A program made the position numbers. Source: a virus (taxonomy: Duplodnaviria; Heunggongvirae; Uroviricota; Caudoviricetes). From it: 46,243 nt of DNA. Below are positions 42,001 to 46,243 of this stretch, piece by piece. Position 1 is the first letter of the stretch. Each line of letters starts with the position of its first letter. The stretch lies in the IMG/VR virus record IMGVR_UViG_2537562192_000013; one strand, given 5' to 3'.

Positions 42001-45000
42001 AAAGATCTTGCAGATGAAGGCACCCGCTGCTTTATCGATGCCGATAATATGCGTGCCGTCAGTGTGCTTAACCTGGGTACTATTGATGAGCCAGGTCACG
42101 CAGATAACACTGCCACTCTCAAACTGAAAAAGACAGCACCGTTCTCTGCTCTGTTGTCTGTTAACGGCGAGCGTAACTCCCAGAAGTCACTGGCAGAATG
42201 GATCGAAGACTGGGCCGACTACCTTGTGGGCTTTGATGCTAATGGTGACGCCATTCAAGCAACAAAAGCGGCTGCGGCAGTCCGTAAAATCACGATTGAA
42301 GCAAACCAGACCGCTGATTTTGAAGATAATGACTTCAGCGGCAAACGCTCCCTGATGGAGTCTGTCGAAGCGAAGACCAAAGACATTATGCCAGTGGCAT
42401 TTGAATTTAAATGCGTTCCGTTTGAAGGTCTGAAAGAACGTCCGTTTAAATTACGCCTCAGCATTATCACTGGCGATCGTCCTGTACTGGTTCTGCGCAT
42501 TATTCAGCTGGAAGCGGTGCAGGAAGAAATGGCTAACGAATTTCGTGATCTGCTTGTTGAGAAATTCAAAGACAGCAAAGTAGAAACCTTTATTGGTACT
42601 TTCACCGCCTGATTTCATTACTGCAAATGCCCCTGCGGGGGCATTTATGGAAACGTAATTAACTCAATAATCACCGGATGGTGAGAGCTTCCTTTTAGCA
42701 GAATTCAACGCGGTGCAGCGCATATAAAGTGGAGAACGAAATGTCATTTATTAAAACTTTTTCCGGGAAGCATTTTTATTATGACAGGATAAATAAAGAC
42801 GACATCGTGATTAACGATATCGCAGTTTCCCTTTCAAATATCTGTCGCTTTGCAGGACATCTTTCACACTTCTACAGTGTCGCCCAGCATGCGGTGCTTT
42901 GCAGCCAGCTGGTGCCGCAGGAATTTGCTTTTGAAGCGTTAATGCATGATGCAACAGAAGCGTATTGCCAGGATATTCCCGCTCCACTGAAACGCCTTCT
43001 TCCTGACTATAAACGGATGGAAGAAAAAATAGACGCCGTAATCCGTGAGAAATACGGGTTACCCCCGGTTATGAGCACGCCTGTGAAATATGCCGATCTC
43101 ATCATGCTGGCAACCGAACGCCGCGATCTCGGGCTTGATGATGGCTCTTTCTGGCCAGTACTGGAAGGTATCCCGGCAACAGAGATGTTCAACGTGATGC
43201 CACTGGCACCGGGCCATGCCTACGGGATGTTTATGGAACGCTTTAACGAGTTATCGGAGTTACGCACATACGCATGAGTCTTTCAACTGAACAACCGCTG
43301 GAGGGGTAGCAATGAGCAACTTAATGACAACAAAACAAGTCGCCGAATTCTGTGGCGTTTCAATATCGACGGTGCTTCGCTGGAACAGCGTAAACAGGAG
43401 GACAGGCCAGAAATACAGGCCAGATTTTCCAGATCCTGATATTAAATCCTGCCCAAATAAATGGGCATCACGCAAAATATACAGATTTGCTGGAGTTATT
43501 GAGTAATGAGAGTTAGCCAAGAGGTGAGATAGTATCCATCTATGGCACAGAACTAAACATAATCTGACTATATGCTCTGTGCCAAAAACAGATGTTATAT
43601 CATGTATTGTATGCTCATCCTGCAAAATATAAATTCCGCAGACACTCCTCACCTCTGAATATTAATCCACAATGGATGCGACAAAAAAGATTTTGAGTTG
43701 GTATCAGGCGAAATATTAATAATTATAATACCCCATGCACAATGCCATCTGAGTCATCAGATCCTGGTCTCTATCAATATTTATCTTGCCATCAGAAAAA
43801 TCCAACACAAAGAAATGATGAAATTTCGGCGGAACAACTTTAGAGTAAAAGCAGAAATACTCATTATTCCTTTCATATTGAAAATTAACGTATATTTTTT
43901 TAATTTTTTTATTTTCCACCAAGTCCATAAACATTTTATTTAAATCTGACCTTTTACTTTCCTTGTCATCATCTTGAAGCTTAGGATCAAAGTAACGTAT
44001 TAAGCAGCTTTCAATAATTCTTCCCTCATTATCAACATCAATTTCATCCAGTAGAGAATTTGAAATATTAAAGACTATATTACATTTATTATTCAGAGAT
44101 ATAATCCTTGGATTAAATATACTAAAACAAACAAAAAAATCATTATCGTCATTTGAAACGCTATACAGCATCTTTGATAAGCCACGGTGAATAAAATCAA
44201 CAGGGCGCCGATGCGGATGACGTGTATATCCTACGTAATGCACTTCTGTATGAATTCCTAAATCAATATAATGTCCGTTTACGAAGTCATGAACTGACAT
44301 TACACATAAATTGCCATTTTCATATTCAATGTAGAGAAACTTCTCAGTTACTCTAACATTTGGAGTTACCTTCACTACCCCATTCTGCGTAAACGTGCAA
44401 AAGGAATATTTTATCCGAAGCTTTCGCTCTTCTTTGCCAATCAACAGAGTGAATACTATATTTTTTGTGAATGGGTTATACCTAGGCTGTTTCTTGGTTG
44501 AAAACCTCACTTTTTTTCTTGAACCTAAGAAATAAATAAATCTCTTTTCACAGCTTTCCCTCGTATATTTTTCCATAATTCTGAGATGGTTCTTTATTAT
44601 CTTATTTGTTCTTATATCATCAGGAGGATTAATTATCATATCATACCAAATACAATCGGTGTTAATGAGATCAATCCACAATGACTTATCGGCTTCTGAG
44701 AAAACCACGTTAGAGTTTATAAAATCAAAGTTTCCGCGAGTCATAAAACACTTCATCACATTAAAAATCACCTGCACATAATAAATTAAGTAGCAGAAGG
44801 TTCGCAAACCCTTGCTTCTGTTTGTGCTATGATATTTTTCATAATTCATTGATTGGCATCCCTACATCCTTAGTCCCACAGTAACCCAATAAACCATCAA
44901 ACTCCTGCCGACCCCCCAAATACTGAAGCTACCGGTTAACGTAGTCTGGCTAAAAACCCAGTACACAAGGTATCCGCAGCGGACTGGCAGATATGATTAC

Positions 45001-46243
45001 GCTCTGGCTACGCAAACTGTCCGTTGGAGATTAAGTCAGTACAAGTAACGATCGATTCAACCCTCTCCCACCATGCCCAGTAAGCTTTACGCTGTTCTTC
45101 TAGATAATCGCTCTTATCATAAACTTGCCATACACCTGGCAGTTTATGACCGAGCATTATTTCAGCAATATGAGGAGCAGTAAGATCAGAAAAGTTTGTT
45201 CGTGCTGTTCGTCTCAAATCATGAAGAGACCAATGAGGAAATTGATACCCCAAACGTCGCCATGCGAACTGCATTAAATTGTAAGGCAGCGACTGCAATG
45301 ATGTCCGACCAACTGGCTCCCTGCTTCCTTCCTTGGTAAAAAGCATATCGGAACCGTTGTTCATAGAGATAACGTATTTTATAAGCTCTTCAACCGGTTC
45401 AATAATGGGCCGCTTTAGCGGTTCGCCTGTTATGTCCCCAGTCTTATGTCGTTCTGGTGGTACAGTCCATACCTTATTTATGAAATCAAAATCATCCACC
45501 CTAGCAGTAATTAGCTCTGAACTACGGCAACCAAAATGCAGCAATAGTTTAATGAAGGCTCGGTATTTAGGAACCATTCGAGAACCATCGATCGCAGCAT
45601 AAAGGATGTTAATTTCATCATGTGTCAGAAACCGTTTTTTCTGACCTTTACGGATATCCATATCTTTACCCGTGATATCCGACAGTGGGCGAGTTTCAAT
45701 GAGCTTTCTCTTATACGCCCAGACATGAGCCTGCTTTGCGTTAATTAGCAATCGGTCTACTATTGCTGGAGTCTTGGTGCTAAGAGGCTCCAGGACTTCT
45801 AACCAATCATGCAATGTAGCTGCATCGTGAGGGATATTCCCGATTTTAGAGAACAGGTGCAGCTCAAACGAGCGGAGTATCTGTTCAGAACCTTTTTTAT
45901 TTTTTACACAATATGCTTCATACCAGGCACGGATCACAGACTCTACCGTCATGGCTTCAGTAGCTTTTCGTTTTTCAGCCTGCTTGACTAATCGTGGATT
46001 GCGGTTTAACTCGAGTTCACCACGGAGACGGATAACTTCTTCTCTGGCCTCTTTTAATCCAGTTGCCGGGTAAGTTCCGATATCAAGGCGCTCACCTTTC
46101 CCTGCCCATTGATAACGATATTGGAACACTACGCGACCTTTCGGTGATACTCTGACAGACAGACCATCACGATCGGATTTAACCAAAACCTTATCACGTT
46201 TCTTTCCAACGACTGAACGCAACCACGCATCAGACAGCGCCAT

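What the first reader, a model, noticed from the sequence alone, without database searches (positions are those of the whole stretch)
43507..45007. Low-GC 377-aa orphan gene in the int-xis cargo position (candidate anti-phage or abortive-infection gene)
The gene at 43716..44849 (minus) is strikingly AT-rich compared with all neighbouring phage genes, is rich in Asn/Lys/Ile/Phe/Tyr, and has no motif I can assign. It sits between the excisionase-like gene and the integrase, a position where prophages and satellites often carry defence or exclusion cargo. A 10-bp inverted repeat (ATGGCACAGA..TCTGTGCCAT, about 43540..43585) lies beside it. Start-codon choice (44849 versus 44756) is unresolved.
Basis: inference. 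Interest (0 to 1): 0.7.

Follow-up and report, generated by a model that had tools for sequence, protein, structure and literature searches.

The report
Prophage cargo gene: likely defence nuclease
A very AT-rich gene sitting between the excisionase and integrase of an E. coli prophage belongs to an unnamed but widespread bacterial protein family that looks like a DNA-cutting (GIY-YIG-type) enzyme and keeps company with known anti-phage systems, so it is a good untested candidate for a new phage-defence gene.

Summary
The ORF is real and is the lowest-GC kilobase of the window (GC 0.32 against 0.52). The gene is probably 342 aa, starting at ATG 44744, not 377 aa. It is not an orphan. It founds an unannotated family of at least 215 clusters at 50% identity, about 300-345 aa, in gamma-, beta- and epsilon-proteobacteria.

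It occupies a 1.38-kb cassette (about 43597-44978) between conserved xis and int flanks. The same integrase occurs in 700 of 5,426 E. coli genomes, but only 62 carry this cargo. Other strains hold Dsr1, Borvo, an HNH protein or unknowns in the slot. Distant homologues lie beside Lamassu, DRT3, Bil and restriction-modification systems.

Best reading: a solitary prophage-borne defence nuclease. This rests on association only; no function was tested. The inverted repeat has a 9-bp core, not 10, and belongs to the conserved xis flank.

The parts
43716..44744 (-). Coding sequence of the cargo protein, 342 aa, starting MTRGNFDF (stop codon included)
   Evidence: ORF. The start is supported by PGAP, phrog_7779 coverage, the family N-termini and the position of Shine-Dalgarno motifs in homologues. 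AF2 model: pLDDT 89.8, pTM 0.88.
44745..44849 (-). In-frame 35-codon upstream extension of the 377-aa ORF. Probably not translated; more likely 5' UTR and promoter region.
   Evidence: The extension is absent from homologues and from the PHROG profile. It contains the promoter-like site.
44778..44807 (-). Sigma-70 promoter-like site TTGCGA-18 nt-TATTAT, about 34 nt upstream of ATG 44744
   Evidence: Consensus scan. The number of such sites in the region is no higher than in shuffles, so this is a lead only.
44502..44546 (-). Encodes residues 67-81, KRFIYFLGSRKKVRF: a conserved basic beta-strand with invariant F69, Y71 and R80. Candidate 'GIY' strand of a split GIY-YIG domain and/or a nucleic-acid-binding element.
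   Evidence: Conservation. The spliced hhalign places FIY on the GIY of I-TevI. Suggestive only.
44181..44249 (-). Encodes residues 166-188, TEVHYVGYTRHPHRRPVDFIHRG: the 'YIG' strand with Y170, G172, T174, P177, R180, H186 and G188, all invariant in 40 sequences
   Evidence: Aligned to the YVG of I-TevI by hhalign. The PF01541 match in member P0119 covers its residues 168-214.
43974..44036 (-). Encodes residues 237-257, the helix carrying E240, E245, I249, Y251, F252 and Q257: candidate metal-binding Glu and the Asn-equivalent
   Evidence: Conservation. hhalign places it on the I-TevI 'IIERENFWIKEL..N' helix. The E-to-I (+4) and E-to-Q (+12) spacings match the E. coli UvrC sequence fetched here.
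43597..44978 (.). Variable cargo cassette, about 1.38 kb, GC 0.338, bounded by conserved flanks
   Evidence: The left homology break with Stx phages falls at query position 297, window about 43596. The right break falls at query positions 1382-1442, window about 44978-45038, in genomes with the same integrase but other cargo.
43518..43609 (.). Imperfect inverted repeat with 34-nt arms. Its perfect 9-bp core is 43543-43551 and 43576-43584. It lies at the xis-side junction of the cassette.
   Evidence: Conserved in six slot variants. As RNA, the minus strand folds at -31.3 kcal/mol (z -3.77) and the plus strand at z -1.38. No compensatory pair changes.
43312..43506 (+). Excisionase (64 aa), convergent with the cargo gene
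   Evidence: phrog_1553 excisionase, E 1e-34. Weak HTH_17 and MerR hits.
45008..46243 (-). Tyrosine integrase (411 aa), upstream of and co-oriented with the cargo gene. The prophage is integrated next to yjjG.
   Evidence: Pfam. RefSeq context.

Best explanation
The gene encodes a solitary 342-aa prophage 'moron' that most likely protects the lysogen against other phages. The proposed mechanism is a DNA endonuclease with a divergent GIY-YIG-type catalytic core embedded in a larger, compact, otherwise unmatched fold.

Proposed working, in order:
1. Shown: the gene is a self-contained 1.38-kb low-GC cassette in the int-xis slot of a CPS-53/yfdPQR-type lambdoid prophage. Unrelated cargoes, including the known defence systems Dsr1 and Borvo, replace it in other strains.
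2. Inferred: it is transcribed in the lysogen from its own sigma-70-like promoter (44807..44778) and/or by read-through from int.
3. Inferred from fold and motifs: Y170, R180, H186, E245 (or E240), Q257 and possibly Y71 form a one-metal GIY-YIG active site. The conserved basic strand SRKKVRF...KKPRY helps bind nucleic acid.
4. Inferred: there is no methyltransferase, antitoxin or other conserved partner, so self/non-self discrimination must be built into the protein. The beta-rich region between residues about 79 and 150, or the N-terminal domain, is the likely sensor. One option is recognition of a feature of incoming phage DNA such as base modification, as in type IV restriction; I put this at about 0.3. 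The other is activation by a phage trigger followed by indiscriminate cleavage (abortive infection); I put this at about 0.25.
For: Family and fold:
- 215 clusters at 50% identity, one architecture.
- AF2 pLDDT 89.8, pTM 0.88.
- PF01541 is the only Pfam family hit repeatedly: 9 of 96 members, best E 1.8e-4, with the next family at 2 members. It matches the predicted region.
- An HMM built from real T4 and UvrC GIY-YIG domains hits residues about 145-240 in most members.
- hhalign lines up YVG, beta3 and the Glu helix.
- Y170, G172, R180, H186, E240 and Q257 are invariant in the 40-sequence alignment, and E245 is nearly so. The Tyr-to-Arg spacing is 10, as read from the I-TevI and UvrC sequences fetched here.

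Defence association:
- The slot alternates with Dsr1 and Borvo.
- Homologues lie next to Lamassu, between BilD and Drt3a/Drt3b, beside type I restriction-modification with PDC-S11 and an HNH enzyme, near a type II restriction-modification system, and near CcdAB and PIN.
- No conserved neighbour, so it is a single-gene unit.

Not a phage life-cycle gene:
- Only 1 of 50,697 phage records has a protein-level match.
- The 14 IMG/VR loci found by the pattern-seeded scan are all at least 97% identical to this gene.
- One homologue is on a conjugative Serratia plasmid.
Against: - No experiment of any kind: expression, nuclease activity and phage resistance are all untested.
- The canonical first Tyr ('GIY') is not clearly identifiable. 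Y159 is conserved only in enterobacteria, and Y71 requires an 88-residue insertion.
- Gln replaces the canonical Asn.
- A domain-only AF2 model (residues 140-290) was poor, pLDDT 64.5.
- Three of the roughly ten genomic contexts examined showed no defence neighbours.
- PADLOC has no match even at E<=10.
Confidence: 0.55

Rival explanations
1. A defence or exclusion protein that works by some mechanism other than DNA cleavage. On this view the GIY-YIG resemblance is a relic or chance, and the protein acts, for example, as a sensor, toxin or nucleic-acid binder.
Against: The residues that match the GIY-YIG catalytic set are precisely the invariant ones of the family. Five independent GIY-YIG structures were recovered. 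PF01541 is the only recurrent Pfam hit.
Confidence: 0.15
2. A free-standing GIY-YIG homing endonuclease, a selfish gene like T4 Seg proteins. It would have inserted itself between int and xis and would spread by cutting cargo-less relatives.
For: GIY-YIG-like core. A discrete AT-rich cassette with sharp boundaries between conserved genes. No partner gene.
Against: - By tblastn at E<=1e-5 the family is almost absent from phages: 1 of 50,697 phage records. The pattern-seeded IMG/VR scan found only near-identical copies.
- Homologues sit in chromosomal defence islands, an integrative conjugative element and a plasmid, with unrelated flanks.
- There is one copy per genome.
- No NUMOD or HTH DNA-binding module was found, and the nuclease-like core is central in a compact 342-aa fold.
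- The same slot holds many unrelated cargoes, as expected of a recombination hotspot rather than a homing site.
Confidence: 0.1
3. A non-defence accessory gene of mobile elements, for example a DNA repair, recombination or host-takeover function, or a counter-defence protein. Its position in islands would only reflect hitch-hiking in variable regions.
For: Three contexts have no defence neighbours. Variable slots also carry virulence and metabolic morons. No match to any PADLOC model.
Against: It lies directly adjacent to Lamassu, DRT3, Bil and restriction-modification systems in four distant taxa, and it alternates with Dsr1 and Borvo in E. coli. This is the pattern that has repeatedly predicted defence genes (Rousset 2022, PMC9122126; Vassallo 2022, PMC9519451).
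Confidence: 0.12
4. The ORF is not a functional gene: either a decaying remnant or a chance ORF in AT-rich DNA.
For: An IS1 interrupts it in one strain. The promoter evidence is no better than chance.
Against: Homologues are full-length at 20-82% identity across three proteobacterial classes, with invariant residues. The fold is confidently predicted. The gene is intact and at least 99% identical in at least the two dozen E. coli genomes listed individually.
Confidence: 0.02

Closest known systems
PD-T4-3, a single-gene GIY-YIG anti-phage system of E. coli (Vassallo et al. 2022, PMC9519451; the PDB 9u75 title calls it a 5hmC-specific restriction endonuclease)
   Different: No PADLOC hit at all, although I expect PADLOC to include this system's model. 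The chain is 248 aa against 342 aa here. In this protein the nuclease-like core is central, possibly split by an 88-residue insertion, and surrounded by other domains. The target specificity of this protein is unknown.
Phage T4 endonuclease II (DenA, PDB 2wsh)
   Different: A 144-aa lytic-phage enzyme that degrades host cytosine-containing DNA. It has no extra domains and no detectable sequence homology by HMMER.
Uzume (UzuA), a single-gene defence protein. A supplementary table of the DefensePredictor paper lists it with a SegE-type GIY-YIG domain at residues 186-282 (PMC13092281).
   Same: A solitary defence protein with a GIY-YIG domain placed internally rather than at the N-terminus.
   Different: No PADLOC match. 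No PF19835 or PF01541 hit for the window protein. Homology is not demonstrable.
Free-standing GIY-YIG homing endonucleases (T4 SegA-G, I-TevI, I-TevII)
   Same: AT-rich single genes inserted between conserved phage genes. The YVG...R...E...N motif is alignable.
   Different: Those have an N-terminal catalytic domain plus NUMOD or HTH DNA-binding tails and live in phage genomes. This family is chromosomal, island-borne or plasmid-borne, with a different architecture.
Variable defence hotspots of prophages and satellites (P2/P4 hotspots, Rousset et al. 2022, PMC9122126)
   Same: A fixed slot between conserved phage genes in which unrelated defence systems replace each other. Here Dsr1, Borvo, an HNH protein and this gene all sit next to the same integrase.
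   Different: A different phage type (yfdPQR/CPS-53-like lambdoid prophage at yjjG) and a different slot (between xis and int). I did not find this particular slot or this family described in the papers I could search.

Membership tests
GIY-YIG nuclease superfamily | 'YIG' motif: Tyr-x-Gly on the second beta-strand | tested here: met
   H169-Y170-V-G172-x-T174 lies on strand 166-174. Y170 and G172 are invariant in 40 sequences. hhalign aligns them to the Y17-V-G19 of I-TevI.
GIY-YIG nuclease superfamily | Catalytic Arg about 10 residues after the YIG Tyr, followed by His or Tyr on helix 1 | tested here: met
   R180 lies at Y170+10, the same spacing as in the I-TevI and E. coli UvrC sequences fetched here. 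It is invariant. H186, also invariant, lies at R+6 where I-TevI has His at R+4.
GIY-YIG nuclease superfamily | Metal-binding Glu on a later helix, then Asn | tested here: inconclusive
   E245 (conserved in at least 90%) and E240 (invariant in A1) lie on helix 237-252. The spacings E245+4 = I249 and E245+12 = Q257 match UvrC, but the position holds an invariant Gln, not Asn.
GIY-YIG nuclease superfamily | 'GIY' Tyr on the first beta-strand, 10-11 residues before YIG | tested here: inconclusive
   Y159 is at the right distance but is conserved only in the enterobacterial clade. Invariant F69-I-Y71 aligns with GIY only if residues 77-163 are treated as an insertion: hhalign P improves from 0.012 to 0.0011, with 48 variants tried. 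The model coordinates could not be inspected.
GIY-YIG nuclease superfamily | Three-stranded alpha/beta fold superposable on solved GIY-YIG domains | tested here: inconclusive
GIY-YIG nuclease superfamily | Pfam PF01541 at its gathering score | tested here: not met
   The window protein has no hit. Nine of 96 relatives have sub-threshold hits, best E 1.8e-4. The only hit whose bit score was shown, P0119, scores 15.6 bits against a 22.6-bit cut-off.
Known anti-phage systems (PADLOC v2.0.0, which I expect to include PD-T4-3 and Uzume) | Match to a system's protein HMM | tested here: not met
   Zero PADLOC families at E<=10.
Anti-phage defence gene (functional class) | Enrichment next to known defence systems or in variable hotspots of mobile elements | tested here: met
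   Neighbours include Lamassu, Drt3a/b, BilD, type I and type II restriction-modification and PDC-S11. The slot alternates with Dsr1 and Borvo. No formal background statistic was computed.
Anti-phage defence gene (functional class) | Reduces phage plating or protects cultures when expressed | not testable with these tools
   Needs phage-challenge experiments.
Free-standing GIY-YIG homing endonuclease | N-terminal catalytic domain plus a NUMOD or HTH DNA-binding tail, resident in phage or intron DNA | tested here: not met
   No such Pfam domains. The core is central. The only phage matches found (tblastn at E<=1e-5, and a motif-seeded IMG/VR scan) are this one prophage lineage.
Toxin-antitoxin or restriction-modification module | A conserved adjacent partner gene (antitoxin or methyltransferase) | tested here: not met
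   No neighbour is shared among ten contexts. The cassette has no second conserved ORF.

The most novel reading that the evidence does not exclude
This is the founding member of a previously unnamed family of single-protein anti-phage nucleases. In it, a GIY-YIG active site would be split by, and regulated through, an inserted beta-rich sensor domain (FIY ... about 88 residues ... YVG), in an overall fold with no solved counterpart. The family would be spread through defence islands of gamma-, beta- and epsilon-proteobacteria and captured by an E. coli prophage in a hitherto undescribed int-xis defence hotspot.
Probability: 0.4. Interest if true: 0.65.

Novelty: new variant of a known kind. 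Interest (0 to 1): 0.5.

Why it matters
If confirmed, this would add a new single-gene defence family to the catalogue. The family has at least 215 sequence clusters and is missing from Pfam, NCBIfam and PADLOC.

It would also give a compact 342-aa nuclease whose self/non-self discrimination is built into one polypeptide. That makes it attractive both for mechanism work and as a possible tool.

Finally, it would flag the xis-int slot of the common yjjG-integrating E. coli prophages, present in about 13% of complete genomes, as a place to mine further systems. Several other cargoes there (413-aa, 331-aa, 271-aa and 517-aa proteins) are equally unannotated.

It is not a conceptual surprise. Prophage hotspots and solitary nuclease defences are established themes.

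Tried and rejected
Searches that found nothing:
- Direct family searches of the window protein: Pfam, NCBIfam and PADLOC gave nothing, and PHROGs gave only an 'unknown function' family.
- HMMER against PDB sequences, by single sequence and by profile: only chance hits.
- Foldseek against the PDB and against BFVD viral structures: nothing significant.
- The afdb50 library was unavailable.
- Rfam scan of 43200-45200: nothing relevant.

Structure and profile tests:
- hhalign of the 96-member alignment against the GIY-YIG set failed or returned no hit.
- My first guess at which members carry the PF01541 hits was mostly wrong. Only P0119 of the ten I scanned had one.

Inverted repeat:
- As an intrinsic terminator: rejected. 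The loop is 24 nt, there is no T-run on either strand, and the terminator scan did not call it.
- As evidence for RNA structure: no compensatory changes in six variants.

Other ideas rejected:
- A partner gene inside the cassette. The 130-aa ORF at 43260-43652(-), annotated in PhiR63_1, overlaps xis antisense and is probably spurious.

Literature:
- Neither accession WP_225261446 or WP_225092812 nor sequence strings occur in the DefensePredictor supplements that are held, though some tables are truncated.
- Brenes & Laub 2025 (ECOR prophage defence systems) could not be read. I therefore cannot exclude that this gene has already been tested there.
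Full report
**1. Observation**

The ORF at 43716..44849 on the minus strand exists. GC is 0.32 over the ORF, against 0.521 for the window, 0.444 for int, 0.426 for xis and 0.475 for yfdR. It is the lowest-GC 1029-bp stretch anywhere in the 46 kb. Asn, Lys, Ile, Phe and Tyr make up 39.5% of residues.

The left neighbour is an excisionase (43312-43506 +, phrog_1553 E 1e-34). The right neighbour is a P4-type tyrosine integrase (45008-46243 -).

The window is a CPS-53-like (yfdP-yfdQ-yfdR) lambdoid prophage of E. coli, integrated next to yjjG. 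It is 99.1% identical in this region to phage PhiR63_1 of ECOR13.

**2. Start codon**

Four lines of evidence point to ATG 44744 and a 342-aa product:
- RefSeq/PGAP annotates a 342-aa product.
- phrog_7779 has 342 positions and covers aa 36-377 of the long ORF.
- Most of the 40 aligned homologues begin M-x-R-G, with R3 and G4 nearly invariant.
- In 6 of the 8 homologue loci inspected, a Shine-Dalgarno motif lies 5-8 nt before that ATG.

In the window the Shine-Dalgarno motif there is weak (GAAG). A stronger AGGTGA lies 8 nt before GTG 44759 and 11 nt before ATG 44756, so a start 4-5 codons further upstream cannot be excluded (my reading of the sequence). The 35-codon extension to 44849 is not conserved. 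It contains a promoter-like TTGCGA-18-TATTAT, although such matches are no more frequent here than in shuffled sequence.

**3. Not an orphan**

A word-indexed search found 47 clusters at 90% identity. An exhaustive HMMER profile search of 1.84 billion representatives found 215 clusters at E<=1e-3, 123 of them at E<=1e-30. Nearly all are 300-345 aa with one architecture.

Hosts include Escherichia, Shigella, Salmonella, Cronobacter, Klebsiella, Serratia, Proteus, Budviciaceae, Acinetobacter, Psychrobium, Pseudomonadales, Robbsia (a beta-proteobacterium) and Arcobacter (an epsilon-proteobacterium). Every source name is 'hypothetical protein'. No Pfam, NCBIfam or PADLOC model matches.

**4. What the protein looks like**

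AlphaFold2 with the 40-sequence alignment gives a confident single compact model: pLDDT 89.8, pTM 0.88. Foldseek finds nothing in the PDB or in BFVD.

The family's invariant residues read like a GIY-YIG site. They are H-Y170-V-G172-x-T174-x-x-P177-x-x-R180-P-x(4)-H186-x-G188, then E240-G-x-I-I-E245-x-x-L-I249-x-Y251-F252-x(4)-Q257. The Tyr-to-Arg distance of 10 and the Glu-to-Ile (+4) and Glu-to-Gln (+12) distances equal those I read from the real I-TevI and E. coli UvrC sequences fetched for this purpose.

Sequence-level tests give weak but consistent support:
- Pfam scans of 96 diverse members give PF01541 (GIY-YIG) for 9 of them, best E 1.8e-4. No other family recurs in more than 2 members.
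- The one PF01541 match inspected, in P0119, covers its residues 168-214, corresponding to profile positions 10-56.
- An HMM built from nine genuine GIY-YIG domains hits residues about 145-240 in most members.
- Profile-profile alignment is weak, P 0.02-0.03 against 0.17 for the reversed profile. It nevertheless puts YVG on YVG, strand 223-228 on I-TevI beta3, and the Glu helix on the Glu helix.

The canonical first tyrosine is the weak point. Y159 has the right spacing but is clade-specific. The invariant F69-I-Y71, in the very basic conserved strand KRFIYFLxSRKKVRF, aligns with G-I-Y only if residues 77-163 are spliced out. That raises the hhalign probability from about 2% to 20% and improves P from 0.012 to 0.0011, but I tried 48 splice variants.

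A split GIY-YIG domain carrying an inserted beta domain would also explain why the isolated 140-290 segment could not be modelled (pLDDT 64.5). I could not inspect coordinates, so this remains a hypothesis.

Overall I put about 0.75 on a GIY-YIG-derived nuclease core. Formal Pfam membership is not met.

**5. The slot**

Homology with Stx1a and Stx2c phages covers xis and stops at about 43596. Homology with genomes that carry the same integrase but other cargo begins at about 44978-45038. The cargo is therefore a 1.38-kb cassette.

The integrase, at 94-98% identity and always beside yjjG, is present in 700 of 5,426 complete E. coli genomes. Only 62 of them have this cassette.

In other strains the slot contains:
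- a Dsr1-type SIR2 protein (PADLOC E = 0; it covers profile positions 1-739 of 1275, and an IS3 transposase lies about 900 bp away);
- Borvo BovA, split into two ORFs;
- an 868-aa HNH+dsrm protein;
- unannotated proteins of 413, 331, 271 and 517 aa.

This is the signature of a defence hotspot of the kind described for P2 and P4 (PMC9122126).

**6. Contexts of distant homologues**

| Host | Neighbouring systems |
|---|---|
| Robbsia | BrxR and BilA-D upstream (BilD confirmed); Drt3b and Drt3a downstream, after one small ORF |
| Proteus | LmuA-LmuC-LmuB (Lamassu) ends 278 bp upstream; the island lies next to smpB and carries an integrase |
| Klebsiella | Type I restriction-modification, a PDC-S11 candidate, a large reverse transcriptase, and an HNH/ScoMcrA-like enzyme |
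| Salmonella | An integrative conjugative element with Dcm methyltransferase, a type II restriction enzyme and Vsr |
| Pseudomonadales | CcdAB and a PIN protein |
| Serratia liquefaciens | Solitary on a conjugative plasmid |
| Budviciaceae, S. plymuthica, Arcobacter | Uninformative |

No neighbour is shared between these contexts, so the unit is a single gene.

Among 50,697 phage genomes only PhiR63_1 encodes a detectable homologue. In IMG/VR the 14 loci found are all at least 97% identical. The family is therefore a bacterial and mobile-element family that one prophage lineage has captured. It is not a phage life-cycle or homing gene.

**7. Mechanism**

What is shown: a discrete cassette, a conserved family, a confident fold, GIY-YIG-like invariant residues, and defence neighbourhoods.

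What is inferred: expression in the lysogen, from its own promoter or by int read-through since the gene lies 263 bp downstream of int on the same strand; one-metal endonuclease chemistry; and discrimination built into the protein through its non-catalytic domains.

I favour a solitary defence nuclease, with overall confidence 0.55. Within that, roughly 0.3 is for direct selective cleavage of incoming DNA (type IV-like, as for PD-T4-3) and 0.25 for trigger-activated abortive cleavage.

Rivals:
- defence without nuclease chemistry (0.15);
- a non-defence accessory or counter-defence function (0.12);
- a homing endonuclease (0.10);
- a non-functional ORF (0.02).

**8. The inverted repeat**

The perfect core is 9 bp (43543-43551 and 43576-43584, with a 24-nt loop).

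It starts 12 nt after the xis stop codon. It is retained, together with the xis flank, in six slot variants that carry different cargo. The homology break lies just beyond its cargo-side arm.

As RNA it is markedly more stable on the minus strand, which is the sense strand of int and the cargo gene: -31.3 kcal/mol, z -3.77, with 0 of 200 shuffles as good. The plus strand gives z -1.38. There are G-U/G-C changes but no double compensatory changes. It has no T-run and is not called as a terminator.

It belongs to the conserved flank at the recombination junction. Its function is open: a barrier between convergent transcripts, a processing site or a protein-binding site.

**9. Novelty and score**

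I found no paper naming this family. However, the most relevant study (Brenes & Laub 2025, on ECOR prophage defence systems) was not readable, and parts of the DefensePredictor tables are truncated.

Conceptually this is a new variant of known kinds: a prophage hotspot cargo and a solitary GIY-YIG-type defence nuclease. What is new is the unrecognised family and an unusual, structurally unmatched architecture. Interest: 0.5.

Noticed in passing
L043 (NZ_CP027340.1, strain 2015C-3121), corresponding to about window 43716-44744: In one otherwise 100% identical prophage, the cargo gene is interrupted by an IS1A element. This leaves a 286-aa C-terminal ORF and an N-terminal pseudogene, showing occasional inactivation of the gene in nature.
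   Followed up: yes
window 43260-43652 (-): A 130-aa ORF antisense to xis is annotated as a hypothetical protein in phage PhiR63_1 (L002 4961-5326). RefSeq/PGAP records, in contrast, leave the well-supported 64-aa excisionase unannotated. The antisense ORF is probably spurious.
   Followed up: partly
window 42612-42659: An inverted repeat with 22-nt arms and a GC-rich core (GCCCC-4 nt-GGGGC) directly follows the yfdQ stop codon. It looks like an intrinsic terminator or regulatory hairpin between yfdQ and yfdR.
   Followed up: no
window 40630-40680: An inverted repeat with 21-nt arms (76% complementary, 9-nt loop) lies just downstream of the XRE/cI-like repressor gene (39888-40580). No function assigned.
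   Followed up: no
window 42729-43277 (+): The prophage encodes a YfdR-type HD-domain 5'-deoxynucleotidase (phrog_318 E 1e-109) two genes from the cargo. YfdP, YfdQ (DUF2303) and YfdR form a conserved module upstream of xis in all slot variants.
   Followed up: partly
L015 1638-3860 and L017 1769-3900 (same slot in other E. coli): The Dsr1 homologue in strain OkiPb01713 covers only profile positions 1-739 of 1275 and lies about 900 bp from an IS3 transposase. The Borvo BovA homologue in O121:H19 FWSEC0006 is split into two ORFs of 260 and 396 aa. Cargo in this slot is often damaged or remodelled.
   Followed up: partly
L026 4853-6094 (IAI39), L027 4703-5518 (AR_0086), L024 4941-5936 (UTI89/APEC O1), L010 4934-6487 (Stx2c phages): Four further cargo proteins occupy the same int-xis slot: 413, 271, 331 and 517 aa. 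None has a Pfam or PADLOC match. They are equally good unexplored defence candidates.
   Followed up: partly
L004 about 7989-8990 (Robbsia andropogonis): The homologue's called start (MFGF...) is probably four codons too short. ATG TCG CGC GGG (M-S-R-G) lies immediately upstream and restores the family's conserved N-terminus.
   Followed up: yes
Stx2c, UTI89 and N196 variants of the xis 3' flank (alignment A6/A7, equivalent to window about 43507-43540): A second, 7-bp perfect inverted repeat (AGATGTG-6 nt-CACATCT) sits between the xis stop codon and the main inverted repeat in most slot variants. It is degenerate in the window.
   Followed up: no
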